Source: a virus
Taxonomy: Duplodnaviria > Heunggongvirae > Uroviricota > Caudoviricetes
DNA length: 64,000 bases
Reading direction: 5' to 3' (one strand)
IMG/VR virus record: IMGVR_UViG_2563366840_000001
The translations under genes and the position numbers were made by a program. The notes below the pieces were generated by a model. The model worked only from the letters and a program-made list of their open reading frames with translations, was not told the origin of the DNA and did no database searches. The stretch's first letter is position 1, and each line of letters opens with the position of its first letter. Of the stretch, positions 22,016 to 39,347 are shown in pieces.

Positions 22016-23956
22016 ATGGATATGAAAAAAGAAACGATTTTTTCCGAAGTAGAAACGGCTAACAGCAAGCAACTGGCTGTGTTGAAAGCTAATTTCCCTC
22101 AGTGTTTTGATAAAAACGGAGCCTTCATTCAAGAAAAATTGCTTGAGATTATTAGGGCATCGGAAGTTGAACTCTCTAAAGAATCATACAGCTTGAACTG
22201 GCTGGGTAAATCTTATGCCCGTTTGTTGGCCAATCTACCACCGAAAACGTTGTTGGCAGAAGATAAAACTCATAACCAACAAGAAGAGAACAAGAACAGT
22301 CAACACCTGTTAATCAAAGGGGATAATCTCGAAGTATTGAAGCATATGGTTAATGCTTACGCTGAAAAGGTGAAGATGATTTACATTGACCCACCATACA
22401 ATACAGGTAAGGATGGGTTCGTTTATAATGATGATCGCAAATTTACACCTGAGCAGCTTTCTGAACTAGCAGGCATCGACCTCGATGAGGCTAAACGCAT
22501 ATTAGAATTTACCACCAAGGGGTCAAGCAGTCATAGTGCATGGCTGACATTCATTTACCCACGCCTTTATATTGCTCGTGAATTAATGAGAGAAGACGGG
22601 ACTATTTTTATTTCTATTGACCATAATGAGTTCAGTCAATTAAAACTAGTTTGCGACGAGATCTTTGGTGAGCAAAACCATGTTGGGGATCTAGTATGGA
22701 AAAATGCAACTGATAACAACCCTTCAAATATCGCTGTAGAGCATGAATATATTATTGTTTACACAAAAAACAAAGAGCAGCTTATAAGTGAGTGGAAATC
22801 TAATATCTCCGATGTAAAAAACTTACTTGTCAACATAGGTGAAGAATTTGCATCAAAATACACTGGCAATGAACTTCAGGAAAAATATACCCAGTGGTTT
22901 CGTGAACACAGATCTGAATTATGGCCTCTTGACCGATACAAATATATAGACAAAGACGGCATCTATACTGGTAGTCAGAGCGTCCACAACCCCGGAAAAG
23001 AGGGTTACAGATATGATATTATACATCCAAAAACTAAGAAGCCATGCAAACAACCTCTTATGGGGTATCGTTTTCCATTAGATACAATGGATAGGCTTCT
23101 GTCTGAAGAAAAGATCATCTTCGGTGATGATGAAAACAAAATTATAGAACTAAAAGTTTATGCTAAGGATTACAAACAGAAATTAAGCTCCGTTATCCAT
23201 CTTGATGGGCGTGTTGCAACGAACGAACTTAAAGAGCTGTTCCCAGAAATGACTCAACCATTCACAAATGCTAAAACTATAAAATTAGTAGAAGATTTAA
23301 TATCTTTTGCATGTGATGGAGAGGGTATTGTTTTGGATTTTTTTGCTGGGTCAGGAACTACAGCGCATACAGTTTTTAATTTGAATAACAAAAATAAAAC
23401 GTCGTATCAGTTTATTACAGTTCAACTAGATGAACCTACAAAAGATAAATCTGATGCCATGAAGCATGGCTATAATACAATATTTGACTTAACAAAGGAG
23501 CGTTTAATTAGGGCGTCTAAAAAAAATAGGGATCAGGGGTTTAAGGTATATCAACTAATGCCAGATTTTCGCGCTAAAGACGAATCAGAACTTACACTGT
23601 CTAATCATACATTCTTTGATGATGTTGTCTTGACGCCTGAACAATATGACACTCTATTAACTACATGGTGCCTGTATGATGGCAGTTTGCTAACAACACC
23701 TATTGAAGATGTTGATCTTGGTGGCTACAAAGCACATTTGTGCGATGGTCGTCTGTATTTGATTGCACCTAATTTTACTAGCGAAGCATTGAAAGCGTTA
23801 CTTCAAAAGGTGGATTCAGACAAAGACTTTGCTCCAAACAAAGTCGTGTTTTATGGCAGCAACTTTGAAAGCGCAAAGCAAATGGAACTCAATGAAGCAC
23901 TAAAAAGTTATGCTAATAAAAAATCTATTGAGTTAGATTTGGTGGTGAGGAACTAA
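22016..23956 (+). CDS. mod: Type III restriction-modification methyltransferase (Mod), EcoP1I-like
   Basis: N6-adenine MTase motifs DPPY and FFAGSGTT; start uncertain between ATG 22016 and 22022 (track 22001); AT-rich coding sequence. Confidence 0.93.
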   Translation: MDMKKETIFSEVETANSKQLAVLKANFPQCFDKNGAFIQEKLLEIIRASEVELSKESYSLNWLGKSYARLLANLPPKTLLAEDKTHNQQEENKNSQHLLIKGDNLEVLKHMVNAYAEKVKMIYIDPPYNTGKDGFVYNDDRKFTPEQLSELAGIDLDEAKRILEFTTKGSSSHSAWLTFIYPRLYIARELMREDGTIFISIDHNEFSQLKLVCDEIFGEQNHVGDLVWKNATDNNPSNIAVEHEYIIVYTKNKEQLISEWKSNISDVKNLLVNIGEEFASKYTGNELQEKYTQWFREHRSELWPLDRYKYIDKDGIYTGSQSVHNPGKEGYRYDIIHPKTKKPCKQPLMGYRFPLDTMDRLLSEEKIIFGDDENKIIELKVYAKDYKQKLSSVIHLDGRVATNELKELFPEMTQPFTNAKTIKLVEDLISFACDGEGIVLDFFAGSGTTAHTVFNLNNKNKTSYQFITVQLDEPTKDKSDAMKHGYNTIFDLTKERLIRASKKNRDQGFKVYQLMPDFRAKDESELTLSNHTFFDDVVLTPEQYDTLLTTWCLYDGSLLTTPIEDVDLGGYKAHLCDGRLYLIAPNFTSEALKALLQKVDSDKDFAPNKVVFYGSNFESAKQMELNEALKSYANKKSIELDLVVRN

Positions 23957-23958
23957 TC

Positions 23959-26871
23959 ATGTCAAAAGGGTTCACTCTCGAAAAGAACTTGCCGCATCAG
24001 AAAGCAGGAGTCGATGCGGTGATGAATGTTTTTGTTTCCGCAACACCTCACCTGACGGATAATGTTGCTGTTCGCCTTTTAGCTAATCCTGAACTGAAGC
24101 TGTCTGAACAACAATACTACAACAATATAAAAAATGTTCAGGCGTTCAATGGTATTGCGCACTCAAAAGATAATCACAATGCTAAAAGCAACATCATTGA
24201 TGTTTCTATGGAGACAGGTACAGGCAAGACGTACACCTATATCAAAACTATTTTTGACCTGAATAAATCATTTGGTATTAACAAGTTTATCATCATTGTT
24301 CCGACTCTATCTATCAAGGCCGGAACCGTTAACTTTTTAAAAAGTGATGCTTTAAAAGAACACTTCCGGGATGATTACAAGCGTGAGCTGAGAACTTACG
24401 TTGTTGAAAGTCAGAAAAACGCTGGCAAAAATACAAAATCGTATATGCCTCAGGCTATACATGATTTTGTTGAAGCAAGTAACTTCAATAAAAAATATAT
24501 ACACGTTCTTGTTATTAACTCAGGAATGATCAACTCTAAGTCTTTAACGGATACTTACGATACTGGCTTGCTTGATAATCAGTTTAATACTCCAGTTGAC
24601 GCGCTCAGAGCTGTAAAACCATTTATCATCATTGACGAACCACATAGATTTCCTACTGGTAAAAAAACATGGGAAAACATAGAGAAATTTAACGCACAAT
24701 ATATTATCCGCTATGGCGCAACCTTTAGCGAAGGCTATAAGAACCTGGTTTATCGTCTTACAGCCGTGGACGCATTTAACGATGATCTCGTTAAAGGTAT
24801 TGATGCATATATTGAGGATATAGTCGGCGATGGTAACGCAAACCTCAAATTCGTCAAATCTGACGGAAAGGAAGCTACATTTGAACTGAATGAAAACAAC
24901 AACAAAAAATCGTTTAAGTTAGCTAAAGGTGAATCACTGTCTAAGACGCATAGTGCGATCCATGATTTAACTCTTGATGCTTTAAACAAGAGCACAGCAG
25001 TGTTGAGTAATGGTATTGAGTTGAAGATTGGTAGCTCAATAAATCCCTATTCTTACGATCAGACACTCGCTGATAACATGATGCGTAAGGCTGTCAAAGA
25101 ACACTTTAAGTTAGAAAAAGAACTTCTGACACAAAGGCCACGCATAAAGCCTCTTACTCTTTTCTTTATTGACGATATTGAAGGCTATCGTGACGGTAAT
25201 GATATTTCCGGAAGCCTGAAGACCAAATTCGAAGAATACGTTCTGGCAGAAGCTAATGAACTGTTAAAAACAGAGCAAGATGCGTTTTATAAAAACTATC
25301 TTGAAAAAACAGTCACAAATATATCTTCCGTTCATGGTGGTTATTTCTCAAAAGATAACAGTGATAAGGATGATAAAATCGAGCAGGAAATCAACGAAAT
25401 CCTTCATGACAAAGAGCTTTTGCTGTCTTTAGATAATCCCCGTCGGTTTATTTTCTCAAAATGGACGTTGCGTGAGGGGTGGGATAATCCTAATGTTTTT
25501 CAGATCTGTAAGCTCCGTTCGAGCGGTAGTACCACATCTAAGCTTCAAGAGGTAGGGCGCGGTTTGCGTCTTCCTGTGAATGAATACATGTGTCGAGTGA
25601 AAGACCGCAATTTTACCCTTAAATATTATGTTGATTTTACAGAAAAGGATTTTGTTGACTCACTTGTTAAAGAGGTCAACGAGAGTTCTTTCAAAGAAAG
25701 GGTTCCAAGTAAGTTTACTCAAGAGCTTAAGGAACAAATCATGGCTCAGTATCCTGAGCTTTCATCCAGAGCACTAATGAATGAACTTTTCAATGATGAA
25801 ATCATTGATGACAATGATAATTTCAAAGATTCAGATGCCTATAGCCGCTTAAAATCCAAATATCCAGCAGCATTCCCTATAGGAGTGAAACCTGGTAAAA
25901 TCAAAAAAGCTACTGATGGAAAAAGACGCACTAAAATGCGTGTTGGTAAGTTCAGTGAGCTGAAAGAACTATGGGATTTGATCAATCAAAAAGCGGTGAT
26001 TGAGTACAAAATAAACAGTGAAAGTGAATTTTTATCCATTTTCAAGTCATTCATGCTCGAAGAAACAGAACGATTTACCAAATCAGGCGTTCATACTCGC
26101 ATTGATAAAATTTACATCCACAATGATATGGCAATGTCGAAAAGCATTGTCAGTGATGACGATGACTTTGCTAAGCTGAACACAATGAGCTATCGAGAGT
26201 TTCTCGATAACTTATCACAGACTATTTTTGTTAAACACGGTACTTTACATAAAGTTTTTTGTGATATAAAAGACACTATTAATATCACTGAATACCTTAA
26301 TATTCAAACAATCAGAAAAATTAAATCTGGTTTTAGTAAGTATTTGTTGAACAATTCGTTTAATAAATTCAGCCTCGGATATAATTTGATTTCGGGTTCA
26401 ATTCATCCTACAAAGTTCACAAATGCTGATGGTAATCCTCTAGGCGAGGTATTATCAAGTGATCTTGGTGTATTGCAGGATAATGCAAAAGCACCATTAG
26501 ATACTTATCTTTTTGAAGAAGTTTTTTATGATTCAGAGCTTGAAAGGCGTAATATAACAGATAGAGAGATCCAGTCTGTTGTTGTTTTTTCAAAGATACC
26601 GAAGAATTCTATTAAGATCCCGGTAGCTGGTGGATACACTTACTCACCCGATTTTGCTTATGTTGTAAAAACAGCGGAAGGTGATTATCTTAATTTTATC
26701 ATTGAAACAAAAAACGTAGATAGTAAGGATAGTTTACGGCTTGAAGAAAAACGGAAAATTGAACATGCCCAAGCGCTTTTCAATCAAATAAGTCAGTCTG
26801 TTAAAGTTGAATTCAGAACGCAGTTTGCTAATGATGATATTTATCAGTTAATCAAGAGCGCATTACCATAA
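23959..26871 (+). CDS. res: Type III restriction endonuclease (Res), EcoP1I-like
   Basis: 970 aa; helicase motifs ETGTGKT and IIIDEPH; immediately follows mod. Confidence 0.93.
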   Translation: MSKGFTLEKNLPHQKAGVDAVMNVFVSATPHLTDNVAVRLLANPELKLSEQQYYNNIKNVQAFNGIAHSKDNHNAKSNIIDVSMETGTGKTYTYIKTIFDLNKSFGINKFIIIVPTLSIKAGTVNFLKSDALKEHFRDDYKRELRTYVVESQKNAGKNTKSYMPQAIHDFVEASNFNKKYIHVLVINSGMINSKSLTDTYDTGLLDNQFNTPVDALRAVKPFIIIDEPHRFPTGKKTWENIEKFNAQYIIRYGATFSEGYKNLVYRLTAVDAFNDDLVKGIDAYIEDIVGDGNANLKFVKSDGKEATFELNENNNKKSFKLAKGESLSKTHSAIHDLTLDALNKSTAVLSNGIELKIGSSINPYSYDQTLADNMMRKAVKEHFKLEKELLTQRPRIKPLTLFFIDDIEGYRDGNDISGSLKTKFEEYVLAEANELLKTEQDAFYKNYLEKTVTNISSVHGGYFSKDNSDKDDKIEQEINEILHDKELLLSLDNPRRFIFSKWTLREGWDNPNVFQICKLRSSGSTTSKLQEVGRGLRLPVNEYMCRVKDRNFTLKYYVDFTEKDFVDSLVKEVNESSFKERVPSKFTQELKEQIMAQYPELSSRALMNELFNDEIIDDNDNFKDSDAYSRLKSKYPAAFPIGVKPGKIKKATDGKRRTKMRVGKFSELKELWDLINQKAVIEYKINSESEFLSIFKSFMLEETERFTKSGVHTRIDKIYIHNDMAMSKSIVSDDDDFAKLNTMSYREFLDNLSQTIFVKHGTLHKVFCDIKDTINITEYLNIQTIRKIKSGFSKYLLNNSFNKFSLGYNLISGSIHPTKFTNADGNPLGEVLSSDLGVLQDNAKAPLDTYLFEEVFYDSELERRNITDREIQSVVVFSKIPKNSIKIPVAGGYTYSPDFAYVVKTAEGDYLNFIIETKNVDSKDSLRLEEKRKIEHAQALFNQISQSVKVEFRTQFANDDIYQLIKSALP

Positions 26872-26882
26872 TGCTAGTTTAA

Positions 26883-26906
26883 AAGGAGGTGAAAACCTCC
26901 TTTTTT
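26883..26906 (+). terminator. Rho-independent terminator after res
   Basis: AAGGAGGT-gaaa-ACCTCCTT stem followed by TTTTTT. Confidence 0.8.
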
Positions 26907-26945
26907 GACATCCTACACGACCTGAAAGAAGTGGCGTTTAGGCCG

Positions 26946-27587
26946 TTAAAAATAGTTCCCCTCTCCAGTTAAGATTCCATGAGGAACTCTTTTTTCTGCA
27001 AGTCTCTGTGTGCCCCGAATTATGTTAATGAGAGGGCTTAGTAACGATGGTTCCTGGTGTGCCTCAACTTCTCCAGCCATTGCCCTGATGTAGTCGGCGC
27101 TGGCAACGTTGTTGTATTCCGTCGCAAAGCAACATAGTAACGTCAGAACATGCTCTGTCGTTATTTCGCTCCAGTTGATGTTGAAAAATTCATCGCCTTT
27201 TTTATCGTGTTCGGAATCGAAGATGCTTTGGTGGAGGATGTATTTGCCGGATTCCTTGCGCGGTAACTTGATTGCTTTCTGGCGTTCCAGCTCCTTATAA
27301 ATCTGCATTGCCTCAATTAGTACCGGCCTGCCGTTCATGAAGGGATCGCGCAACCTTACACGCTGGCCAACTCGACCAGTAATAAAGCTGTTTTCCTCTT
27401 CCACCAGCACGATAAAACCCTTTTCCTCTTTTTCTCGCAATTCGCGCAGCAGCTGGAGTTCCATATCGCGGCGGCGTTCAGGGTAGCTGGTCCGCTCAGC
27501 CATTATCAGCTCGTTATTGATCCATGCAGCAGTCATTGACGCCGGTTTGCCGACGCTCATCGAAACAACGCATATTTTCTTATCCAT
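26946..27587 (-). CDS. mat: Mat-like protein
   Basis: Position between res and ref as in P1; start at MDKKICVV (27587) follows a GGGGG SD; track ORF extends to 27734. Confidence 0.5.
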   Translation of the reverse strand: MDKKICVVSMSVGKPASMTAAWINNELIMAERTSYPERRRDMELQLLRELREKEEKGFIVLVEEENSFITGRVGQRVRLRDPFMNGRPVLIEAMQIYKELERQKAIKLPRKESGKYILHQSIFDSEHDKKGDEFFNINWSEITTEHVLTLLCCFATEYNNVASADYIRAMAGEVEAHQEPSLLSPLINIIRGTQRLAEKRVPHGILTGEGNYF

Positions 27588-27776
27588 AGCGCCCCCTACA
27601 AAAAAGAAAAGCCACCAGCGGCGGCTTAGCAATACAACTGAAGGTAGCGCCCGGTACTCAGACTGTGCCGTCCATGGAATATTTGAAAAGGGATCCATCC
27701 GTACCGGGCGTGTGATGATTCTGACTGAAGTCACTTGTCAGTTGTCAATCATTTATCATTAAAAATAATATATTTA

Positions 27777-28337
27777 TTAGTGCATGATGTTTGCCATCTC
27801 ATAGGCGTCAGCCAGTAACTCCATCTCTGACTTGTTCAGCAGGGTGAATTCTTTCTTGCCTCCAACCACACCATCGGCATGAACAGGGACCAGCCAGGGG
27901 TATTTTGCTCTTACTTCAGCCGGTGCTGCATGCTGGTGGTGCCATCTACAAAGTGGCAATTGCTTTTTATGACAACCCGGCGCGGTACGACCGGCGATAT
28001 GGTGCAGAGACACCTCATTAGATATTACTCCATGCATATAGCAGGCAATGCAGGGGAGAGTGCCAAGAGCATTGGCGATGCGCCGTTCCTCCGCCGTTGG
28101 TGTTCTCCCCTTCAAGCCACGAGATTTTATTTTTACCGCGCTTTTCCGCGTTTTGCTGGCTGGTGGGCGCTCTTTCTGTTTAGCGATACGGCGGTCGATA
28201 GTATCCCGCATTTTCTGATATTGAGATTCTCGCCAGACCGGATCAGCCAACTTCTCCCGTTGCCGAGCGATCGCTCGTTCTCTGGCTGCCTTCTGCCACT
28301 TGCGGCACTGTTCAATTTTTTGTTCGATTGTTTTCAT
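27777..28337 (-). CDS. ref: Ref recombination enhancement HNH nuclease
   Basis: 186 aa with Cys/His-rich HNH-type motif CIACYMHG...HHIAGR...CRWHH; matches P1 Ref. Confidence 0.9.
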   Translation of the reverse strand: MKTIEQKIEQCRKWQKAARERAIARQREKLADPVWRESQYQKMRDTIDRRIAKQKERPPASKTRKSAVKIKSRGLKGRTPTAEERRIANALGTLPCIACYMHGVISNEVSLHHIAGRTAPGCHKKQLPLCRWHHQHAAPAEVRAKYPWLVPVHADGVVGGKKEFTLLNKSEMELLADAYEMANIMH

Positions 28338-28436
28338 ATGGTCAAAAAAAAGGCGGCCTAATGGCCGCCTATGATGTCAAGGAGTGAAGTAATGGCAACG
28401 TCTTCGTAGTTGGCAAAAACTGCGACTCAATTATAG

Positions 28437-28453
28437 CAACCAATTAGAGCAAT
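28437..28453. promoter_or_regulatory. C1 operator-like site upstream of ref
   Basis: Contains the TTAGAGCAAT core of the C1 operator. Confidence 0.45.
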
Positions 28454-28584
28454 TAAAGTTGTTTATTTATCGCGAATCACATTTTTTCACTTCAGTACCT
28501 GTGTGCTATACTCCTTCTTGATTGATTGGATGCGGAATACAAACCCGCTCTTTTGTGCAGCCTGGATCCTTGCCAGGCTTTTTT

Positions 28585-28896
28585 TTATTTCATCATGGAA
28601 GCTGTTAACGCTTTGGACCTTGCTGAACTGATTGAGAGGGCTTTGTCAACGTGCCCCAAAAATTCGCCAAACTCAGACATCACTTTAGCAAAACCGCGCC
28701 GTGCTTCTTCCTCGGTGGCATTCATCACGAAATGTTCAGCACCACGCATACTTTTGACAGGGAACGCAACGGATATTGAATCAATATCAGGCATTCTATC
28801 GCTCAGCTTTACAGTGACAATGACGGCTGGCGACTGAATATTAGTGCTTACAGACAGCACTACATATTTTCCGTCGATGTTGAAATCCTTTCTCAT
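28585..28896 (-). CDS. cra: Cre-associated protein
   Basis: 103-aa ORF immediately downstream of cre. Confidence 0.6.
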   Translation of the reverse strand: MRKDFNIDGKYVVLSVSTNIQSPAVIVTVKLSDRMPDIDSISVAFPVKSMRGAEHFVMNATEEEARRGFAKVMSEFGEFLGHVDKALSISSARSKALTASMMK

Positions 28897-28912
28897 ATGT
28901 CACCATAAATAT

Positions 28913-28929
28913 CAAAGAATTAGAGCAAT
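28913..28929. promoter_or_regulatory. C1 operator-like site between cre and cra
   Basis: AATTAGAGCAAT core, about 13/17 to consensus. Confidence 0.4.
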
Positions 28930-28946
28930 CATTTACGCGTTAATGG

Positions 28947-29978
28947 CTAATCGCCATCTTCCAGCAGGCGCACCATTGCCCCTGTTTCACTATCCAGGTT
29001 ACGGATATAGTTCATGACAATATTTACGTTGGTCCAGCCACCAGCTTGCATGATCTCCGGTATTGAAACTCCGGCACGGGCCATATCTCGCGCGGCTCCG
29101 ACACGGGCACTGTGTCCAGACCAGGCCAGGTACCTCTGGCCAGAGTCATCCTTAGCCCCGTAAATCAATCGGTGAGTTGCTTCAAAAATCCCTTCCAGGG
29201 CGCGAGTTGATAGCTGGCTGGTGGGTGATGGCGAGGCAACACCATTTTTTCTGACCCGGCAAAACAAGTAGTTATTCGGATCATCAGCCACACCAGAGAC
29301 AGAAATCCATCGCTCGACCAGTTTAGTTACCCCCAGGCTAAGTGCCTTCTCTACACCTGCGGTGCTAACCAGCGTTTTCGTTCTGCCAATATGGATTAAC
29401 ATTCTCCCACCGTCAGTACGTGAGATATCTTTAACCCTGATCCTGGCAATTTCGGCTATACGTAACAGGGTGTTATAAGCAATCCCCAGAAATGCCAGAT
29501 TACGTATATCCTGGCAGCGATCGCTATTTTCCATGAGTGAACGAACCTGGTCGAAATCAGTGCGTTCGAACGCTAGTGCCTGTTTTGCACGTTCACCGGC
29601 ATCAACGTTTTCTTTTCGGATCCGCCGCATAACCAGTGAAACAGCATTGCTGTCACTTAGTCGCGGCAGCCCGGACCGACGATGAAGCATGTTTAGCTGG
29701 CCCAAATGTTGCTGGATAGTTTTTACTGCCAGACCGCGCGCCTGAAGATATAGAAGATAATCGCGAACATCTTCAGGTTCTGCGGGAAACCATTTCCGGT
29801 TATTCAACTTGCACCATGCCGCCCATGACCGGCAAACGGACAGAAGCATTTTCCAGGTATGCTCAGAAAACGCCTGGCGATCCCTGAACATGTCCATCAG
29901 GTTCTTGCGAACCTCATCACTCGTTGCATCGACCGGCAATGCAGGCAAATTTTGGTGTACGGTCAGTAAATTGGACAT
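28947..29978 (-). CDS. cre: Cre tyrosine recombinase
   Basis: 343 aa, MSNLLTVHQNLPALPVDATSDEVRKNLMDMF...; near-identical to Cre with a few substitutions. Confidence 0.99.
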   Translation of the reverse strand: MSNLLTVHQNLPALPVDATSDEVRKNLMDMFRDRQAFSEHTWKMLLSVCRSWAAWCKLNNRKWFPAEPEDVRDYLLYLQARGLAVKTIQQHLGQLNMLHRRSGLPRLSDSNAVSLVMRRIRKENVDAGERAKQALAFERTDFDQVRSLMENSDRCQDIRNLAFLGIAYNTLLRIAEIARIRVKDISRTDGGRMLIHIGRTKTLVSTAGVEKALSLGVTKLVERWISVSGVADDPNNYLFCRVRKNGVASPSPTSQLSTRALEGIFEATHRLIYGAKDDSGQRYLAWSGHSARVGAARDMARAGVSIPEIMQAGGWTNVNIVMNYIRNLDSETGAMVRLLEDGD

Positions 29979-30396
29979 TTGACACTCAGATAATGGTTTT
30001 AAGTAAAGTGTACAGGATCGGCTCTGCCTTTACCTGTTTATGGTTCTCGTCATAGAAACGCCAACGACCGCGACTGCGTTCTATCTTTTCTTCACCGCGC
30101 GATAATGACAGTTGACAACTATCACGATCAAACCCTTTTGCCCGCCAGTAACCACGATTTTTCTCAAGCTCAAGATGAGTGGACACTTTAGCAGCTGAAT
30201 ATCCCATTTTTCACCTCTGATTGATTGGTGGTGCTAAGTGCGCTACGCGAAATCTGGAGCACTAACACTGCCAACATTTCGCAGATTTTACGTAGCGCAA
30301 CCTTGATCAAATGATCAAGTGATCACTATTTGACCTGGTAAGGTATTGAACTGTATGGATTTACAGGTAAATTGATCATGTTCAATAACCCTTAAG

Positions 30397-30430
30397 ATAA
30401 CTTCGTATAATGTATGCTATACGAAGTTAT
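30397..30430. other. loxP site
   Basis: Exact ATAACTTCGTATA-ATGTATGC-TATACGAAGTTAT 34-bp sequence. Confidence 0.99.
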
Positions 30431-30473
30431 TAGGTCTGAAGAGGAGTTTACGTCCAGCTGCGCATAAAAATCA

Positions 30474-30490
30474 AGAATTATTAGAGCAAT
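30474..30490 (-). promoter_or_regulatory. C1 operator (Op99-type)
   Basis: AGAATTATTAGAGCAAT, 14/17 to the reverse consensus. Confidence 0.6.
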
Positions 30491-30550
30491 AAATTTTGAG
30501 AGAAAAATCCCACTCCACCAGCCAAAAACTGGATTGTTTTTCATAGTTGT

Positions 30551-30577
30551 TTGACAATTGCTCTAATAAATTATAGT
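30551..30577 (+). promoter_or_regulatory. coi/c1 promoter overlapped by a C1 operator
   Basis: TTGACA followed by ATTGCTCTAATAAATTA (16/17) and TATAGT. Confidence 0.75.
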
Positions 30578-30811
30578 TTTGCCGCCGTTACGTAATACGA
30601 CTTTGGATTCACTATTTAATGTGTCTTCAGCGTTGTAGAGCGGCTCAGAAGGAAATGAGCAAACAGGGAAACCTTATACAACGGCATTACAGCTATGCAT
30701 TGCTCATCTTACACACAGCGCAATGTTGTTAGATTACCCCAGCATGGATCATGGGTGAAACAGTAGGTCAGAGCTTCAGGCTCTGTGTTGTCAATACAGT
30801 GAGGCATAATT

Positions 30812-31021
30812 ATGGCTTTCATTCCACCAACCATCGACGACGTTAGACATTGCTCTAACGCTTTATCTGTAGACCCCGCCGAAACCGACGCTGCCCGCGC
30901 CATTGCTGAACACTACTCAAAGATATCCAATCAGGAGTACCGCATCACCCAAGACGACCTGGATGATCTCACTGACACAATCGAATATCTCATGGCCACT
31001 AACCAGCCAGACTCACAATAA
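30812..31021 (+). CDS. coi: Coi, C1 inactivator
   Basis: 69-aa ORF directly upstream of c1. Confidence 0.85.
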   Translation: MAFIPPTIDDVRHCSNALSVDPAETDAARAIAEHYSKISNQEYRITQDDLDDLTDTIEYLMATNQPDSQ

Positions 31022-31131
31022 ATGCACTAATAAATCTATTATTTTCGTTGGATCCTTCTATAATGGTGGCCAACAACTCCCAGTGTAATCCGCTGTGAGT
31101 TGTTGGCCATGTCAATTCTGGAGGAGGATCA

Positions 31132-31983
31132 ATGATAAATTATGTCTACGGCGAACAACTGTACCAGGAGTTCGTCAGCTTCAGGGATCTCTTTCTAAAA
31201 AAAGCTGTTGCACGCGCCCAACACGTTGATGCCGCCAGCAACGGTCGTCCTGTACGCCCGGTTGTCGTTCTACCGTTCAAAGAAACTGACAGCATTCAGG
31301 CTGAAATTGATAAATGGACTTTAATGGCGCGGGAACTGGAACAGTACCCAGACCTCAATATCCCAAAGACTATTTTATATCCAGTGCCTAACATCCTTCG
31401 CGGTGTGCGTAAGGTTACAACTTATCAGACAGAGGCTGTGAACAGCGTCAACATGACCGCTGGCCGCATTATTCATCTGATTGATAAGGACATTCGCATC
31501 CAAAAAAGCGCGGGGATCAATGAGCACAGTGCGAAATACATAGAGAACCTGGAAGCAACAAAAGAGCTAATGAAGCAGTACCCGGAGGATGAAAAATTCC
31601 GTATGCGCGTACACGGCTTTAGCGAAACAATGCTGCGCGTCCATTACATTTCTAGTAGCCCTAACTACAATGATGGTAAATCAGTTAGTTACCATGTGCC
31701 GCTATGTGGTGTGTTTATCTGCGATGAAACTCTCCGTGATGGAATTATCATCAACGGTGAATTCGAGAAAGCAAAATTTAGCCTTTATGACTCCATAGAA
31801 CCGATCATCTGCGACCGCTGGCCGCAAGCAAAAATATATCGCCTGGCAGATATTGAAAATGTAAAAAAACAAATTGCCATCACTCGCGAAGAGAAAAAGG
31901 TTAAGTCAGCCGCATCAGTTACGCGCAGTCGTAAAACCAAGAAGGGGCAGCCAGTAAACGACAACCCCGAAAGCGCGCAATAA
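31132..31983 (+). CDS. c1: C1 master repressor
   Basis: 283 aa, MINYVYGEQLYQEFVSFRDLFLKKAV...; matches P1 C1. Confidence 0.97.
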   Translation: MINYVYGEQLYQEFVSFRDLFLKKAVARAQHVDAASNGRPVRPVVVLPFKETDSIQAEIDKWTLMARELEQYPDLNIPKTILYPVPNILRGVRKVTTYQTEAVNSVNMTAGRIIHLIDKDIRIQKSAGINEHSAKYIENLEATKELMKQYPEDEKFRMRVHGFSETMLRVHYISSSPNYNDGKSVSYHVPLCGVFICDETLRDGIIINGEFEKAKFSLYDSIEPIICDRWPQAKIYRLADIENVKKQIAITREEKKVKSAASVTRSRKTKKGQPVNDNPESAQ

Positions 31984-32015
31984 ATTATGCCCGGCATCAA
32001 CCGGGCATTCTTCCA

Positions 32016-33128
32016 TTATTCAACCGCCACCGGTTTTAACAAGCCAGCATCGAGCAGTTTACGCGTCAACCACTGCTGGCCTTTACCCGTTAATTGAGGC
32101 GTCAACCGTATCTGGTAGCCATCTTCATCATCCAGCACCACTTCTTTCACCGTGAAATACCCCGCGTTGATGTACTGCTGGAACGGCACATTTTTACGTC
32201 CACCGGACGCTATCAGGATGCCGTTCTCCCGTAACCAGGCAAACAGCGCGTTTTGCTTAAGTCCAACAACCTTTGCAAAATTCCCAATCAGGATCCCTTT
32301 AGCTACTGATACCCGGTCGGCAAAATCGACCTTAGGAGCGGCGGCTACCAGCTGCTGATTTAGCTGGTGGGCTTTCTGTTCCAGAAGCTGCTTTTTTTCA
32401 GCCAGTTCGGCAGCCAGGCGTAGGGCTTCTGGTAATGTTTGGGGGATTGCAACCGGTTGCTGTTCTTTTTGCCGGAAGTAGCTGTCTTCCAGTTTTTCAA
32501 AGAATGCCCATGCTTCATTTGTGTCCACGATCTTAGACATGCGTGCCGCTCCGCGCTCGGCCCAGAGAATTACCTGACTTGTATATTTGCTAACCAAGTG
32601 ACTAATAGTCACTAGCCTTTTAAATTCCTTTAATTTTGAACCAGTTAAGAGATAGTAATGCTTACCTTCTTCAAAGCGATCGGGGTTGCGAGACAAATTT
32701 TTACGAATATTCGCTTCATCGGTCCCATACCCTTTAGCAAGAGTCTCAGTTGTCACTACACGCACTCCCAGCCATTCCAGAACGGGAATTTCATCAGACT
32801 GATTCTGAACAACCACCAGCTCCGATTCCTGAACTGAAGGTGCATGAATTTTTTCTGATTTAACGTTAGTTGCTTTCATTCTGTGTGCCTCCTTGCGTGC
32901 TTCGGCTGCGACGGTTGCGTAATTCAGATGACCCTGTTCGAGCAGGTATTCGCGGATATCAGACAACAGAATGCGGTGAACAGCGTTCTTGTCCTTTCTC
33001 CGGTAAAGTTGTTTGGTGATCATGAAGTAGTTGGCTATAACGCCTGGTATATCCCTGGTACTGATACAGGCAGTGTGCTGTTCAATTGCCTCGATCATCT
33101 CTTCACGGGTGACTAATGACGTTCTCAT
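32016..33128 (-). CDS. Antirepressor-like protein (ORF6N plus KilAC/ANT domains)
   Basis: Central ORF6N-like segment NPDRFEEGKHYYLLTGSKLKEFKR and C-terminal ANT-like segment VPFQQYINAGYFTVKE. Confidence 0.65.
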   Translation of the reverse strand: MRTSLVTREEMIEAIEQHTACISTRDIPGVIANYFMITKQLYRRKDKNAVHRILLSDIREYLLEQGHLNYATVAAEARKEAHRMKATNVKSEKIHAPSVQESELVVVQNQSDEIPVLEWLGVRVVTTETLAKGYGTDEANIRKNLSRNPDRFEEGKHYYLLTGSKLKEFKRLVTISHLVSKYTSQVILWAERGAARMSKIVDTNEAWAFFEKLEDSYFRQKEQQPVAIPQTLPEALRLAAELAEKKQLLEQKAHQLNQQLVAAAPKVDFADRVSVAKGILIGNFAKVVGLKQNALFAWLRENGILIASGGRKNVPFQQYINAGYFTVKEVVLDDEDGYQIRLTPQLTGKGQQWLTRKLLDAGLLKPVAVE

Positions 33129-33346
33129 AGTCCCTCCTGAGCAGAAGCGTTAACAGGGAGGCACCAGTAACTGAGAGAATTGCGCGAATCAGTAGAAAAA
33201 CGGGCGGAGAAAATACAGGGTGCATCAGGAAGCTGAGAGCGAGCCTCATCTTCTGTCGGTGCAATAACGAAGTGATAGTGACGTTTCTGGCAGGAGTAAA
33301 AGCGCCAGATAAATTCAGGATGAGTTGGGGTAGGGATAGTAGCCAT
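33125..33346 (-). CDS. Small protein translationally coupled to the antirepressor gene (icd-like position)
   Basis: 73-aa ORF whose stop overlaps the antirepressor ATG (ATGA). Confidence 0.5.
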   Translation of the reverse strand: MATIPTPTHPEFIWRFYSCQKRHYHFVIAPTEDEARSQLPDAPCIFSARFSTDSRNSLSYWCLPVNASAQEGL

Positions 33347-33520
33347 AATGGCAGCCTCCTTTGACTAAGTTAAGGAGCTACCGCGTGAGGTTCCAATCTC
33401 AATGGCGGTAGCACTGACTGGGTTGGAACTACCGGCGTCAAAGGGAACCGGCCTGCCTTTCGGCAGCCCAGCCAGCACTACCATTGATCTCTGAGCTAAA
33501 CGCTACGTATGGCCGTGCGA

Positions 33521-33685
33521 TGGCATGACACAAAAAAAGACGCTTTTGGCGTCTGTGTCGCCTTTGACATTATCCGGGGTTCCAATCCCGGCACCCGTTT
33601 TAATGAGGTGCCTGATAAGCATAAACCGAAAATGCCTCAAGGCGCAAGAGGTCAGGTTCAATGTAACATCGGTAGCTAAAAAACA
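33521..33685 (-). ncRNA. Candidate small structured RNA (c4-like antisense regulator) upstream of icd-like/ant-like genes
   Basis: C1 operator-bearing promoter region, hairpin-rich sequence with a GGTTCCAATC motif repeated in the downstream leader, ends in AGACGC-tttt-GGCGTCT stem plus U-run on the minus strand. Confidence 0.3.
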
Positions 33686-33702
33686 CAATTTATTAGAGCA
33701 AA
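33686..33702 (-). promoter_or_regulatory. C1 operator
   Basis: AATTTATTAGAGCAA, 15/17 to consensus. Confidence 0.65.
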
Positions 33703-33705
33703 TGT

Positions 33706-35190
33706 TCATTCATTAAGCCATGCCAGAGCTTCATCAACCTGCGCTTCGTCTTCGACGCTAAGCACTTCATCCTGGGGAACATAATCCGCCAGCATAGCGA
33801 AACAATATGTATCCCAATGGTCTGGTGAGTGCAGGTTGAGTTTTTTCTTCATATCCTCCTTACTCATCACCTTCCATTGACCTGCGGAGTTAATCCCTAC
33901 AGGGATTTTCGACGCTTCCTCAATAGTTTCATTACCCTTATCCAGTCTCATACGACCAGATTTTACGGCCTCTGCGGCTTGAACGTTGGCATAAGCACGT
34001 TTATCAAAGTACAGGCTCTTATCTTCACGGCTATGCATCTTTTTACCCCAGCGTATACGCTGTACGGTAATACCATAATACTCGTACATCAGATCCGCCG
34101 TTGCTTTACCCAGCCCATCACCGTCTATCGCTATGGTGATATTTGGGAATCGCTCAGGATTACATTCTGCGAAAATTTTGGCGGCAAGCTGCGTTTCTGT
34201 AACGTCTGTGTATTCCAGCATTCGATAGTTGATTACACGGCGTTTATTTCTCTGGCCGGACACCATCATGATATTGATAACGGACTTATCCCGTCCCGTA
34301 CCACCAGCAACGTCCACACATGCAAGCCAGCCCCATCCTTTGGCAATCTTGACTTTCCGCCGCGTCGCACGTTCAACCTCATCACGTCCAAGAAGGAAGC
34401 CATCCTGTGATTTAGGGAATAGTCCGCGTACCTTAATCATGTACATAGGGTTATCACGCCCGCCGTACTCCGCCAGCTTCATTTTGATAAATGCTGGCGT
34501 TACCAGCGGTGATTCCTCACTGTTAAGCGTGATCGCCGTATAAACGCCATCAGGGTTACCAGGACGCTTGGCCAGTTTATGGTGAGTATCGTAGAAATAG
34601 CCGCTTGGGCGTGTAGGCTGTGACAATAATAAGATGCGGTTATCCTGTCCGGTAAGAGCACCAGTGATGATACCGAAAGCTCTATCACTGACACCGGAGG
34701 CTTCATCGATAATATACAGAAGATGATCTGCGTGTTCACCGGCGAGAGCTTCTTCACTTCCCAGACGAAAGCCCTTCGGTACTACAGTCCATACACCTTT
34801 ACCAGTAACCTCATAGAAAGCGGTTTCTGTCAGAACAAAATAATCAGCAAGCCATGGAAAACGGCTGGTGGCAGTAGCCCAGTTTATCTTGATGTACTTG
34901 AATATACCGGTCATTACCTGCTGAATTTTGTTCGCAACGATAATGGCGCGGGCACCGGGATACATGATTATGAACAACATGATCATGATAGAAGTCATGT
35001 CTGATTTCCCGGTACCGTGACCAGACGAAACAGATGTCTTGCTACCCTGTTCCTGCACAGACTCAATAATCAGATCCTGCTGCCAGGTAGGTGTTTTGCC
35101 GAACAAAACATCAGCGGCAGCAATCCAGTCATAACGATATAGCGCCACCAGCTCGCGCCAACGTGGATCCGTTACGCAACTTCTGGCCAT
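33706..35190 (-). CDS. pacB: Terminase large subunit PacB
   Basis: 494-aa ORF overlapping the pacA stop; position as in P1. Confidence 0.85.
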
Positions 35191-36383
35191 TAATCATCAT
35201 CCCCGTATAGCTTGCGGGTAACTTCTTCGTCTTCCTCCTCGTCTTCGTCCAGGTCTTGTTCCAGCCATGGGTCGTTTGATACACCTTCAGTATCAACATC
35301 TCCATAACCGCCTGTATCAACGATATCGGCGATTTCTTCCCTACGCTGCTCAATCCACAATGCGGCATCGGCGCGGCGGTTGGCGGCCCGTTCTCGCGCA
35401 ACTTTGTCCAGATCTTCAAGAGAAGGGCCACCGACGGCTGTTTGCCTTTCCTCATCATCGGTATTGGTCTTAGGAGCACGCAGATCGGCTTTGATTTGCT
35501 CCAGCATCAGGGGCGGAACTTTCCCACCATGCGCCTCGATGAATTCAGCTGCTTCCAGCACTGACCAGTTATTTTCACGCTTTCGTTCGTATGCCAGCTT
35601 AACAATGCCAGCTTGCCCCATAGACAAAGCGTGCTTTTCCGCCTCCCGGCTTTCTTTTCGATAGTTATTCCGGATGCTGTAAATGGTGTTGATCAGACTG
35701 CTTATCTGCGCGGAACAGCTGTTTAGCATGCTCGCGATACGGTATTCAGGCGGAGTACCTCCATCATCGTCTTTTTGCTGATCGCGCATTTCCTGCACCA
35801 GGCGAATACACGTATCCCTGGCGTTCTCCAGCATAAGGAGATGAGAAAGAGACTTTTCAAGAAGAGTGGTTTCCAGAACATCGGCCCCGGACCGACGCAA
35901 CATAGCGCGCGCGGCCTTCCGCGCTTCAACGTTATCTATCAGGTAATCGCCAGCTTCGAATTCAAAGCGTTCACCATCATCATCCAGGGTGTCGCGTTCC
36001 AGACGATCACGTAAGGTCCGGTGGGCGCGGGTGATCACGTCATGATCATCTGAACGATCATTTATGCGCTTATTTTGGCGCTTCGCATTCTCGACTGCGG
36101 CACTGACAACGGCATTAACTCTCTGTTTTTCCGCTATTTCAGCCGCAATATGATCACCTGCATGTTGATCATTAGAGTGATCAATGATCATGCCTTTTAG
36201 TGGCTTCCTGACTGGCTTATTTGGCTTGCGGCTGTCCGCAGTCCTGGTGTCTTCTTTGAAGGCACGGAGATAACGACGTGCGGTATTAGGGTTAAGATTA
36301 AACTCGGCGGCATACTGTGCGATGGTGTAACCACCATCTCGCGCCAGGCGAGCAAAATTCTTCTTGTGATCGTCCCAGGTCAC
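35190..36383 (-). CDS. pacA: Terminase small subunit PacA
   Basis: 397 aa with acidic C-terminus; contains the pac hexamer cluster in its 5 prime third. Confidence 0.9.
36030..36190. other. pac packaging site (TGATCA/G hexamer clusters)
   Basis: Three to four TGATCA-type hexamers at 36004-36061 and four at 36151-36190 flanking a roughly 90-bp spacer, each containing a GATC Dam site. Confidence 0.85.
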
Positions 36384-36468
36384 TTATGCTTCCTTTCGTA
36401 AAAACTCTTTTTGACGCGAGGGTAACGAAAGTCACATGTCAAAAGGCCCGGAACGGGCAAGCAATCAA

Positions 36469-36921
36469 TCAGATACGTGCGGATGTGGCATTACCGTAAT
36501 GACGGTGCTGACGGGCCACCTTATTGAAAAGTTGACGCGCCATTACCCAAGGCTGGTGCTCCCGGCGTTCCTTTTCGTCCTGCGTCATATAGAGTTCGTT
36601 CTGGAGTTTTTCATCAAACCGGCGCGGAGCGCGGCTGCGGCGAAAGAATTCAGGATTCAGAGAGTGGATCTGAAATCTACGTGGGCGTGTACTGTCATCA
36701 ATCAAAACAGACGAATACTTAGACACAGCGATAGCCTTTAAGCGCAGATAAACATCGCGCTTATCGACATCCAGATGCGGGTATTCCTTTTCAAGAATTG
36801 CTGCGAGTTCTTTCGCTGATAGAAGAGATTTAGTGCGGATCATGTAATCCGCAATCTCGTACGATGTTATTCGTGAGTGATTTATTTCCATGAAGTGGCG
36901 TCCCTGCCAGTTAAGTAACAT
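36469..36921 (-). CDS. lpa: Late promoter activator Lpa
   Basis: 150-aa ORF (start may be the internal MEINHS) preceded by a C1 operator, between pacA and pdcB as in P1. Confidence 0.75.
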   Translation of the reverse strand: MLLNWQGRHFMEINHSRITSYEIADYMIRTKSLLSAKELAAILEKEYPHLDVDKRDVYLRLKAIAVSKYSSVLIDDSTRPRRFQIHSLNPEFFRRSRAPRRFDEKLQNELYMTQDEKERREHQPWVMARQLFNKVARQHRHYGNATSARI

Positions 36922-36991
36922 CCTGTCACCTACTGATTAGCCCATGTCAACTAATCAACGTCGAATATAATACCATCGATTAAAGAAATAG

Positions 36992-37008
36992 CAATGCATT
37001 AGAGCAAT
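36992..37008 (-). promoter_or_regulatory. C1 operator upstream of lpa (Op94-type)
   Basis: CAATGCATTAGAGCAAT, 14/17 to the reverse consensus. Confidence 0.6.
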
Positions 37009-37009
37009 T

Positions 37010-38053
37010 TCATCTAACGCTCGACGAATGACTTGTGATAGCGCCGACTCCAAGCGCGTAATCAAAGAACAATCGTTGATGCATCGCCAGCCTACCGTGC
37101 GTCTTCTCCCAATTATCGCGGTCACGCTCAATATCACGCTGGCATGACTGGCACAGAGGAATAGCATAAATGTCATGCGCGCATAATCGACTATGACGAA
37201 CGATATAAGGCGTAATGTGAGCGCCAGCTCCCGCAGCTCCACAGCCACAGCATGGACGGGAAGCCACAAAATCCATGTACTCGGGCAATTTTAGCGATTG
37301 AAGTTTTGGTATTTTGAAATGCGCCATGCTAGGGTCGGAGTCAACATCCACAGGGCATACTTTTGCACGCATCGGCGCGGCGCGTTCTTCCATCATCTGA
37401 ACATATGCTGTAGCGCGATCGTCATACGGGCGAATATCCGCCTCTTTCAGAGGTCCACTATCCTGCGGAGTAGCCTTCATCTTATTTATTGATATGCGGC
37501 AGACTTCTTCCGGCATCAGGTGCATCATGTTGCGCATGAAAGCCCACCAGCACAGCTCCTGAATACTTAAATCATGGCTATTTGAAAGGCCCATTTCCTG
37601 ACGGGCGACATCCAGTATCCAGTTAACGCGATTATTGTGCAGCGTTTCTTTCAGCTCATTAAAACCACGCATCCGGTAATGGTTATCGTGATGCCAGCAC
37701 AACAACACCGCGCTATTGTCTCGTTCAGCGTGGACAATATGGTTGTCACACCAACTACGATCTGCGGCCTGGCATTGACCCTCTTTCCTACGCAACCACG
37801 CAACCAGCGCGTCAATTCCACCAATACGGCGAAACAGTTCATCGCTGTTAAAAAACGGCTGCAACGCCTCATTTGTTGCCATGGTTTGCTCGGTAACAAC
37901 GAGGCCGTCTTCCATGTGCTCGATTAACTCACGCGGCACCGGCTCCATAATAAATTTACGGCCAGCCTCCACCAGCTTTCTGACCTCCTGATCCACTTTG
38001 AACGTGGCGAGGCCAAGCTCTTTCTGTACAAAGGGAGTAATTACGGCTTTCAC
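37010..38053 (-). CDS. pdcB: PdcB
   Basis: 347-aa Cys-rich ORF downstream of doc, as in P1. Confidence 0.7.
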
Positions 38054-38080
38054 ATCACACCTTTAATCACTGATTGGGCT

Positions 38081-38281
38081 TTATCTGCTGCCCGGCATTC
38101 TCTGTTTAAGCACAGCCATTTCCTGACGGCATAACACAGCAATAGCGGTCCTGGCACCAATTTGCCTACCAACCAGGTATTGCTTTACCTCGCGGCGACT
38201 CACGCCATCAAGAAGCATCTTTAACGCTTCACGGGACAACTTGTTGTATTTACGTGCCATTAATCTACTCCGCAGAACCAT
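38081..38281 (-). CDS. Small protein downstream of doc (pdcA position)
   Basis: 66-aa track ORF; likely start at internal MARKYNK (38260) just after the doc stop. Confidence 0.45.
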
Positions 38282-38645
38282 ACAATCTACGTAACGTGTC
38301 GGCGACAGAAGATACAGATATCTCGCCAGTCGCAGCGCCTACGGTAAGGTCTGCCAGTTCAGGTGAATCAAATACCTGCACCCCGTTACGGCGTAGAAAT
38401 AGCAGCGCACTGTTTAGCGCGGTACGCTTATTGGCATCATTGAATATATGCCCTCTCGCTGTAGCCACCAGGTAGGTGGCGGAGACTTCGAAAAGGTCGG
38501 TGATCTCTTCGTAGGCAACTCTGGCCTGAACTCTCCCGATAATGGCCTCTGCCCTACCCGGATCTGACATTCCCGGCAGGCCGCCGTAGCGGCTTATATT
38601 CGCATCATGAAGCGCAATAAGTTCTTCCGGTGATATATGCCTCAT
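38265..38645 (-). CDS. doc: Doc toxin (Fic-fold kinase)
   Basis: 126 aa with Fic motif [12 protein letters not shown]; matches P1 Doc. Confidence 0.97.
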
Positions 38646-38866: not shown

Positions 38867-38872
38867 AAACAC

Positions 38873-38896
38873 CTCGTGTACTCGTTATGTGTACAC
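38873..38896. promoter_or_regulatory. phd-doc operator palindromes
   Basis: GTGTAC half-site plus perfect TGTGTACACA palindrome immediately upstream of phd. Confidence 0.7.
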
Positions 38897-39328: not shown

Positions 39329-39347
39329 AGCGTTTCCACCTCAATAA

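What the first reader, a model, noticed from the sequence alone, without database searches (positions are those of the whole stretch)
30397..30577. Exact loxP plus immC operators
The 34-bp loxP is a perfect match to the canonical site. The coi/c1 promoter is overlapped by a near-consensus C1 operator with a second operator 70 bp upstream, giving the layout expected for autoregulated immC.
Basis: seen in the sequence. Interest (0 to 1): 0.2.

Follow-up and report, generated by a model that had tools for sequence, protein, structure and literature searches.

The report
Phage P1 loxP and repressor operators
This is the textbook loxP recombination site of phage P1 followed by two known binding sites for the P1 repressor C1, sitting in a natural P1-like phage-plasmid of E. 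coli; it is correct as described and entirely ordinary.

Summary
An exact 34-bp loxP lies at 30397-30430 (none expected by chance). Two C1-operator matches lie at 30474-30490 (minus strand, 2 mismatches) and 30557-30573 (plus strand, 1 mismatch).

The window is a P1-like phage-plasmid, colinear with phage P1 in reverse orientation. From loxP to the c1 start it differs from P1 at only two bases, neither in an operator or promoter.

By coordinate transfer from the P1 record AF234172:
- The downstream site is Oc1d (Op99d), lying between the hexamers of promoter P1coi, which drives imcA-imcB-coi-c1.
- The upstream site is Oc1e (Op99e). It is inverted and abuts the -35 of the divergent promoter P4cre, which reads across loxP towards cra and cre.

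Oc1e is assigned to the leftward promoter, not to the coi promoter. The classical c1 autoregulatory unit (Oc1ab/Pc1) lies at 31021-31064, outside the interval.

The same DNA occurs at 95% identity or more in about 680 sequenced plasmids, so nothing here is new.

Noticed in passing: an immI-like antirepressor module (C1 operator, isrK-like and C4-like RNAs, icd and ant homologues) is inserted between c1 and pacB. The insertion of an ant gene and short ORFs at this position is already reported in relatives.

The parts
28947..29978 (-). cre, the tyrosine recombinase that acts at loxP
   Evidence: 343-aa ORF. It differs from P1 Cre at only three positions: P107L, A249S and A252P. Pfam Phage_integrase E=6.7e-33. 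Catalytic residues R173, E176, K201, H289, R292, W315 and Y324 are all present.
29986..30207 (-). cra, small ORF between loxP and cre ('putative cre associated function')
   Evidence: 73-aa ORF. Corresponds to P1 cra at P1 207-428. Two substitutions relative to P1.
30346..30373 (+). P2coi promoter with an overlapping LexA box (30349-30368), reading rightwards across loxP
   Evidence: Coordinate transfer from P1 41-68 and 46-65. The window has TTGAAC / TAAATT and AACTGTATGGATTTACAGGT, which fits CTGT-N8-ACAG. Promoter activity was not tested here.
30397..30430 (+). loxP, the 34-bp Cre recombination site
   Evidence: Exact match, none expected by chance. Perfect 13-bp inverted arms and spacer ATGTATGC. 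The P1 record places the centre of lox at its coordinate 1.
30445..30474 (-). P4cre, a leftward sigma-70 promoter reading through loxP towards cra and cre
   Evidence: Coordinate transfer from P1 94740-94769. Hexamers TTGATT / TAAACT with an 18-bp spacer. Identical to P1.
30474..30490 (-). C1 operator Oc1e (former Op99e)
   Evidence: ATTGCTCTAATAATTCT, 2 mismatches to the consensus. Equals P1 94724-94740, annotated as a monovalent C1-controlled operator. One variable column among 11 relatives.
30551..30580 (+). P1coi (former P99d), promoter of the imcA-imcB-coi-c1 transcript
   Evidence: Coordinate transfer from P1 94634-94663. The -35 is TTGACA. The -10 is ambiguous in sequence: TATAGT with a 15-bp spacer, TAGTTT with 17, or the annotated hexamer with 18. 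The generic promoter scan did not call it.
30557..30573 (+). C1 operator Oc1d (former Op99d), in the spacer of P1coi
   Evidence: ATTGCTCTAATAAATTA, 1 mismatch. Equals P1 94641-94657. Invariant in all 11 aligned relatives.
30619..30732 (+). imcA small ORF
   Evidence: 37-aa ORF. Equals P1 imcA. One base differs from P1.
30751..30846 (+). imcB small ORF
   Evidence: 31-aa ORF. Equals P1 imcB.
30812..31021 (+). coi, the inactivator of C1 repressor
   Evidence: 69-aa ORF. Identical in protein sequence to P1 Coi.
30849..30865 (+). C1 operator Oc1c (former Op99c), inside coi
   Evidence: Coordinate transfer from P1 94349-94365. ATTGCTCTAACGCTTTA, 5 mismatches, so the 3-mismatch search missed it.
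31021..31064 (+). Bivalent operator Oc1ab (31021-31048) overlapping promoter Pc1 (31035-31064), the autoregulatory unit nearest c1
   Evidence: Coordinate transfer from P1 94150-94193. Oc1a is AATGCACTAATAAATCT, 3 mismatches. The -10 is TATAAT.
31132..31983 (+). c1, the primary repressor that binds the operators
   Evidence: 283-aa ORF. Two differences from P1 C1.100: D37N and C193G.

Best explanation
The interval is the junction between the Cre-lox module and the immC immunity region of a natural P1-like phage-plasmid.

loxP (30397-30430) is the substrate of Cre, encoded 418 bp to the left on the minus strand. By established knowledge of P1, Cre recombines two loxP sites to circularise infecting DNA and to resolve plasmid dimers.

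To the right, C1 repressor (gene at 31132-31983) binds as a monomer to the asymmetric 17-bp operator Oc1d, which fills the spacer of promoter P1coi. This shuts off the transcript that carries imcA, imcB, coi and c1. In a lysogen the antirepressor Coi is therefore not made, and c1 is kept going from its own promoter Pc1, which is damped by the bivalent operator Oc1ab. After infection, before C1 accumulates, P1coi makes both Coi and C1, and their balance sets the lysis-lysogeny choice.

The second operator, Oc1e, points the other way and abuts the -35 of P4cre. That promoter reads leftwards through loxP into cra and cre, so C1 probably also limits that transcript.

Shown here: the sequences, their identity to P1, the presence of intact cre, coi and c1, and enrichment of operator matches far above chance. 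Taken from the P1 record and papers: the binding and promoter assignments. Inferred: that they act identically in this element.
For: - Exact loxP, none expected by chance.
- 11 operator matches against 0.32 expected. Nine fall on operators annotated in P1: Ossb, Oc1e, Oc1d, Oc1a, Olpa, OpmgT, OpmgRa, OpmgRb and O26.
- The window is colinear with P1 over about 60 kb at 92-99% identity.
- From the loxP centre (30414) to the c1 start there are only 2 substitutions relative to P1, neither in an operator or promoter.
- The P1 record annotates lox, P4cre, Oc1e, P1coi, Oc1d, imcA, imcB, coi, Oc1c, Oc1ab, Pc1 and c1 in exactly this order. On the other side it annotates the LexA box, P2coi, Dam sites, cra and cre.
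- Cre is 340/343 identical to P1 Cre and keeps all catalytic residues. Coi is identical. C1 is 281/283 identical.
- PMC2409434 places loxP between c1 and cre, with coi, imcB and imcA on one side and cra on the other.
- Among 11 relatives, operator positions vary less than the surrounding intergenic DNA: 1 of 34 columns against 23 of 154, one-sided Fisher p=0.04.
Against: Nothing contradicts this explanation. Its limits are:
- A generic sigma-70 consensus scan calls no promoter anywhere in 29900-31200. The promoter assignments therefore rest on the P1 annotation, not on independent prediction here, and the -10 of P1coi is ambiguous in sequence.
- The role of Oc1e is worded only as 'may control' in the P1 record.
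- The conservation contrast is weak, because the relatives are all at least 94% identical.
- The primary papers on Op99 footprinting and the P1 genome paper are not in the held library.
Confidence: 0.96

Rival explanations
1. The exact loxP marks an engineered construct or vector contamination (a P1-derived cloning vector or a floxed cassette), not a natural phage genome.
For: Exact 34-bp loxP sites are common in engineered DNA. A few plasmid hits from unrelated genera (Alicyclobacillus, Nonomuraea, Pseudobutyrivibrio) match the query and may be vector-derived; these records were not inspected.
Against: loxP sits in its native context. There are about 60 kb of colinear P1 genes on both sides at 92-99% identity with natural polymorphism. 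Cre, Cra and C1 carry natural substitutions. The same arrangement is found in about 680 plasmids from human, animal and environmental Escherichia and Salmonella isolates. No vector backbone was seen.
Confidence: 0.01
2. The two 17-bp matches are chance AT-rich look-alikes and do not bind C1.
For: The operator consensus is AT-rich and the intergenic region is AT-rich. One of the 11 hits (14424-14440, 3 mismatches) falls inside darB where P1 has no annotated operator, so some weak hits may be chance.
Against: The whole 64-kb window is expected to give 0.32 hits at up to 3 mismatches, and 11 are found. The two sites here have only 1 and 2 mismatches. They are base-for-base identical to P1 operators Oc1d and Oc1e. 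Oc1d is invariant in 11 relatives.
Confidence: 0.01
3. The upstream operator Oc1e is not an independent switch for P4cre. It acts mainly as an auxiliary site that cooperates with Oc1d, Oc1c and Oc1ab, through C1-mediated looping, to tighten repression of immC. This is closer to what the first reader implied.
For: Five operators are clustered within 575 bp. From my own recollection of the P1 literature, not checked in the held library, C1-mediated DNA looping among the Op99 operators has been reported to contribute to c1 autoregulation. The P1 record itself says only that Oc1e 'may control' cra and cre.
Against: Oc1e is inverted and lies 61 bp upstream of the -35 of P1coi, but it touches the -35 of P4cre. 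That geometry favours control of the leftward promoter. Nothing in the sequence discriminates between the two roles, and they are not exclusive.
Confidence: 0.3

Closest known systems
Bacteriophage P1 lox-immC junction (AF234172 / NC_005856: lox, P4cre, Oc1e/Op99e, P1coi/P99d, Oc1d/Op99d, imcA, imcB, coi, c1)
   Same: Same order, spacing and orientation of every element. The sequence is identical from the loxP centre through both operators and P1coi, with 2 substitutions in the 718 bp from 30414 up to the c1 start. Coi is identical, C1 is 281/283 identical and Cre is 340/343 identical.
   Different: On the cre side there are about a dozen substitutions relative to P1 in 30257-30396, including one that creates a fourth GATC at 30321. 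Downstream of c1 the window carries a 1.7-kb insertion that P1 lacks.
P1-like phage-plasmids and phages such as vB_EcoM-673R5, phi456, JL22, RCS47 and pTZ20_1P
   Same: Same loxP-immC region. These relatives also share the ant-containing insertion between c1 and pacB: coverage of the 3-kb query runs past the c1 stop in 673R5, phi456, JL22 and RCS47, and PMC6906374 reports the insertion for pTZ20_1P and RCS47.
   Different: 673R5 differs from the window at several intergenic positions and in the c1 leader at 31046-31106, where two haplotypes exist. The window carries the P1 type.
Phage P7 immC (AF503408, AY751747)
   Same: Matches the window at 97.7-98.2% through loxP, coi and c1, with the same features annotated.
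   Different: The P7 match stops at the end of c1, so P7 has no ant insertion there.

Membership tests
loxP site of the P1 Cre-lox system | 34 bp: two 13-bp perfect inverted repeats (ATAACTTCGTATA) around the asymmetric 8-bp spacer ATGTATGC | tested here: met
   Exact match at 30397-30430. Arms verified as reverse complements.
loxP site of the P1 Cre-lox system | Cognate Cre tyrosine recombinase encoded nearby with an intact catalytic set | tested here: met
   cre at 28947-29978 (-). 340/343 identical to P1 Cre. Phage_integrase domain. R173, E176, K201, H289, R292, W315 and Y324 present.
loxP site of the P1 Cre-lox system | Native position between cra-cre and immC | tested here: met
   Colinear with P1 on both sides. 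Map described in PMC2409434.
loxP site of the P1 Cre-lox system | Cre-dependent recombination at the site | not testable with these tools
   Needs an in vitro or in vivo recombination assay with this element's Cre variant.
C1-controlled operators of phage P1 (Oc1d/Op99d and Oc1e/Op99e) | Asymmetric 17-bp match to ATTGCTCTAATAAATTT | tested here: met
   1 and 2 mismatches. 11 hits in the window against 0.32 expected.
C1-controlled operators of phage P1 (Oc1d/Op99d and Oc1e/Op99e) | Positional and sequence identity with the operators annotated in P1 | tested here: met
   Identical to P1 94641-94657 and 94724-94740.
C1-controlled operators of phage P1 (Oc1d/Op99d and Oc1e/Op99e) | Operator overlaps or abuts a sigma-70 promoter, shown by independent prediction | tested here: inconclusive
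   TTGACA abuts Oc1d, and the P1 record annotates P1coi and P4cre here. The generic consensus scan called no promoter in 29900-31200, and the -10 of P1coi is ambiguous.
C1-controlled operators of phage P1 (Oc1d/Op99d and Oc1e/Op99e) | Cognate repressor C1 encoded by the same element | tested here: met
   c1 at 31132-31983, 281/283 identical to P1 C1.100.
C1-controlled operators of phage P1 (Oc1d/Op99d and Oc1e/Op99e) | Physical binding of C1 and repression of the promoter | not testable with these tools
   Needs footprinting or a reporter assay. Inferred from identity with P1.
immC region of P1 | Gene and site order P1coi/Oc1d, imcA, imcB, coi (with Oc1c inside), Oc1ab/Pc1, c1 | tested here: met
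   All ORFs are present at the expected coordinates. All sites were located by coordinate transfer and their sequences read.

The most novel reading that the evidence does not exclude
Oc1e, together with the two promoters that fire across loxP (P4cre leftwards, and the LexA-boxed P2coi rightwards), could make the immunity state and the SOS response gate both the Cre supply and transcription through the recombination site. Dimer resolution or cyclisation would then be coupled to the lysis-lysogeny state. The P1 record only says that Oc1e 'may control' cra and cre. I found no direct test in the papers I could read.
Probability: 0.15. Interest if true: 0.3.

Novelty: already known. Interest (0 to 1): 0.04.

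Why it matters
It matters only as annotation. It fixes the identity of the window as a P1-like phage-plasmid, fixes its orientation (reverse of the P1 reference), and marks the zero point of the P1 map at 30413/30414. It also shows that this element has an intact Cre-lox system and an intact C1/Coi switch. No open question is advanced.

Tried and rejected
- A generic sigma-70 and terminator scan of 29900-31200 called no promoter, and only a weak hairpin inside coi that coincides with Oc1c. It neither supports nor refutes the P1 promoter annotation.
- The P1 genome paper (PMC523184) and the paper on the c1 genes of P1 and P7 (PMC334876) are not held.
- A search for the operator names Op99, P1coi and Oc1 returned only unrelated papers. 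One search failed on a term that was too short. One script failed on a file name.
- I considered vector contamination and chance matches as explanations and rejected both (see rival explanations).
- I asked whether convergent transcription from the inserted ant operon could run antisense into c1. A GC-rich hairpin at 31987-32008 sits between the two stop codons, so I did not pursue the idea.
- The conservation test across relatives is weak because every available relative is at least 94% identical.

Full report
**Observation**

I read 30100-31000 and ran the two pattern searches. The canonical 34-bp loxP occurs once in the window, at 30397-30430 on the plus strand, with no mismatch. No shuffle of the window gave any match even at three mismatches. 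Its arms are perfect 13-bp inverted repeats around ATGTATGC.

Two hits lie in the interval:
- ATTGCTCTAATAAATTA at 30557-30573 (+), one mismatch
- ATTGCTCTAATAATTCT at 30474-30490 (-), two mismatches

TTGACA at 30551-30556 abuts the first. The gap between the two operators is 66 bp, 83 bp centre to centre.

**What the window is**

A 3-kb query around the interval matches phage P1, P7 and many P1-like phages at 96-98%. A 25-kb query matches 1,753 plasmid records, mostly Escherichia, and 24 of them cover at least 80% of it.

BLAST of the whole window against P1 AF234172 shows colinearity in reverse orientation:
- P1 31836..1 corresponds to window 778..30413.
- P1 94800..71259 corresponds to window 30414..60239.
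- Several non-P1 stretches interrupt the alignment.

The P1 map origin (the centre of lox) therefore falls at 30413/30414.

**Mapping onto the curated P1 record**

The annotation of AF234172 gives the following order to the right of lox:

| P1 feature | Window coordinates |
|---|---|
| P4cre (minus strand) | -10 at 30445-30450, -35 at 30469-30474 |
| Oc1e (former Op99e), 'may control expression of cra and cre' | 30474-30490 (-) |
| P1coi (former P99d) | 30551-30580 |
| Oc1d (former Op99d), 'controls expression of c1, coi, and imcBA' | 30557-30573 |
| imcA | 30619-30732 |
| imcB | 30751-30846 |
| coi | 30812-31021 |
| Oc1c | 30849-30865 |
| Bivalent Oc1ab | 31021-31048 |
| Pc1 | 31035-31064 |
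| c1 | 31132-31983 |

To the left of lox the record gives:
- Dam sites.
- A promoter P2coi (30346-30373, reading rightwards across lox) overlapped by a LexA box (30349-30368). The window reads AACTGTATGGATTTACAGGT there.
- P3cre, P2cre and P1cre.
- cra (29986-30207, minus strand).
- cre (28947-29978, minus strand).

All the corresponding ORFs are present.

From the loxP centre (30414) to the c1 start the window differs from P1 at two bases, one just downstream of P1coi and one in imcA. Neither is in an operator or promoter. At the protein level:
- Coi is identical to P1 Coi.
- C1 differs from C1.100 at D37N and C193G.
- Cre differs at P107L, A249S and A252P.
- Cra differs at two positions.

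Cre keeps R173, E176, K201, H289, R292, W315 and Y324 and has the Phage_integrase domain.

**The other operator hits**

Nine of the 11 hits coincide with operators annotated in P1: Ossb, Oc1e, Oc1d, Oc1a, Olpa, OpmgT, OpmgRa, OpmgRb and O26. One, at 33686-33702, lies in a non-P1 insertion. One, at 14424-14440 with three mismatches, lies in darB, where P1 has no annotated operator.

Some P1 operators in the window's range have four or more mismatches and were missed by the 3-mismatch search:
- Oref, Omat and Oppp: 4 mismatches each.
- Oc1c: 5 mismatches.
- Oc1b: 7 mismatches.

**How it works**

By established knowledge of P1, Cre recombines loxP sites to circularise infecting DNA and to resolve plasmid dimers (PMC2409434).

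PMC8546580 states the following:
- C1 is made from P1coi and Pc1.
- Coi is made only from P1coi.
- C1 represses both promoters through adjacent operators.
- Coi forms a 1:1 complex with C1.
- Lxc strengthens C1 binding.
- The operator consensus is the 17-mer used here.

Oc1d fills the spacer of P1coi, so C1 bound there excludes RNA polymerase. In a lysogen coi is silent, and c1 is maintained from Pc1 under Oc1ab control.

Oc1e faces the other way and touches the -35 of P4cre, so it most plausibly damps the leftward transcript that crosses loxP into cra and cre. A contribution to cooperative repression of immC is a non-exclusive alternative. I recall reports of C1-mediated looping among the Op99 operators, but I could not check this in the held library.

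The sequence identities are shown here. The binding and promoter assignments are taken from the P1 record and papers. That they act the same way in this element is an inference from near-identity.

**Limits**

A generic sigma-70 scan calls no promoter in 29900-31200. The -10 of P1coi is ambiguous: TATAGT at 15 bp, TAGTTT at 17 bp, or the annotated hexamer at 18 bp.

Conservation evidence is weak because all relatives are at least 94% identical. Among 11 aligned sequences Oc1d is invariant and Oc1e has one variable column. That is 1 of 34 operator columns against 23 of 154 in the remaining intergenic DNA (one-sided Fisher p=0.04).

**How common it is**

A 301-bp query (30340-30640) covering the interval is found in 705 plasmid records. 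In 684 of them at least 80% of the query is covered, and 689 match at 95% identity or more (411 at 99% or more). A 941-bp query gives 712 records. It is a standard feature of P1-like phage-plasmids.

**Comparison and novelty**

This is the P1 lox-immC junction itself, in a natural relative of P1. Every defining feature that can be tested by sequence is met. Only physical binding and recombination remain untested. The finding is correct and already known.

**Side observations**

Between the c1 stop (31983) and the start of pacB homology (33704) the window carries a 1.7-kb module on the minus strand. In order of transcription it holds:
- a C1-operator-like site, TTTGCTCTAATAAATTG, at 33686-33702
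- an Rfam isrK match at 33533-33611 and an Rfam C4 antisense RNA match at 33401-33488
- a 73-aa homologue of P1 Icd, 80% identical
- a 370-aa antirepressor with ORF6N and KilAC domains, 56% identical to P1 Ant1

The C4-like RNA is strongly diverged from P1 c4. A GC-rich hairpin at 31987-32008 separates the convergent c1 and ant genes. The insertion of ant plus short ORFs between pacB and c1 is already reported for pTZ20_1P and RCS47 (PMC6906374).

Noticed in passing
window 31984-33703 (minus strand): An immI-like antirepressor module is inserted between c1 and pacB. It holds a C1-operator-like site (33686-33702), an Rfam isrK match (33533-33611), an Rfam C4 antisense RNA match (33401-33488), an Icd homologue (33125-33346, 80% identical to P1 Icd) and an ORF6N+KilAC antirepressor (32016-33128, 56% identical to P1 Ant1). 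The C4-like RNA is strongly diverged from P1 c4, so it may have a different immunity specificity. The insertion itself is reported in PMC6906374; the passages I read there mention only short ORFs and ant, not the RNAs or the operator.
   Followed up: partly
window 31987-32008: A GC-rich hairpin, ATGCCCGGCATCAACCGGGCAT, lies between the stop codons of the convergent c1 and ant genes. It is a possible bidirectional terminator and belongs to the insertion, not to P1.
   Followed up: partly
window 48079-49383 (ALIL at 48933-49049, minus strand): An Rfam ALIL pseudoknot (120 bits) lies inside a 1.3-kb stretch with no P1 match. ALIL is the frameshift signal of IS3-family transposases (from my own knowledge), so an insertion sequence has probably landed near pmgQ/pmgR.
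   Followed up: no
window 14424-14440 (minus strand): An operator-like 17-mer, ATTGCCCTAATGTATTT (3 mismatches), maps to about P1 17177, in the 5' end of darB near PdarB/LPpro. P1 has no annotated operator there. It may be chance or an unannotated weak site.
   Followed up: no
window 28947-29978 (minus strand): Cre carries P107L, A249S and A252P relative to P1 Cre. All catalytic residues are intact. Any effect on activity is unknown.
   Followed up: partly
window 30305-30324, and loci L002, L013: The window has a fourth GATC at 30321, where P1 has GGTC. Two relatives (673R5 and NZ_CP142591) lack the 8 bp at 30312-30319, so the number of Dam sites in the cre regulatory region varies among P1-like elements.
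   Followed up: no
loci L006 and L007 (positions equivalent to window 30412, 30551, 30554): One relative (NZ_CP145664) has a loxP spacer variant, G to A, giving ATATATGC. That plasmid and NZ_CP050045 have CTGGCA instead of TTGACA at the -35 of P1coi. These are natural variants that might alter lox compatibility or coi expression.
   Followed up: no
window 31046-31106: The c1 leader between Oc1ab and the c1 start exists as two sharply different haplotypes among relatives, differing at about 25 positions in 60 bp. The window, P1 and NZ_CP142591 share one; the other eight aligned sequences share the other.
   Followed up: no
loci L009, L010, L011 (cra homologues): Several plasmid records annotate the 73-aa cra ORF next to loxP as 'creatininase'. 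This is almost certainly an annotation error propagated by name similarity.
   Followed up: no
window 1-777, 9176-9861, 22582-23588, 40037-40968, 42248-44990, 60239-64000: Further stretches without a P1 match in the BLAST. Their content was not examined.
   Followed up: no
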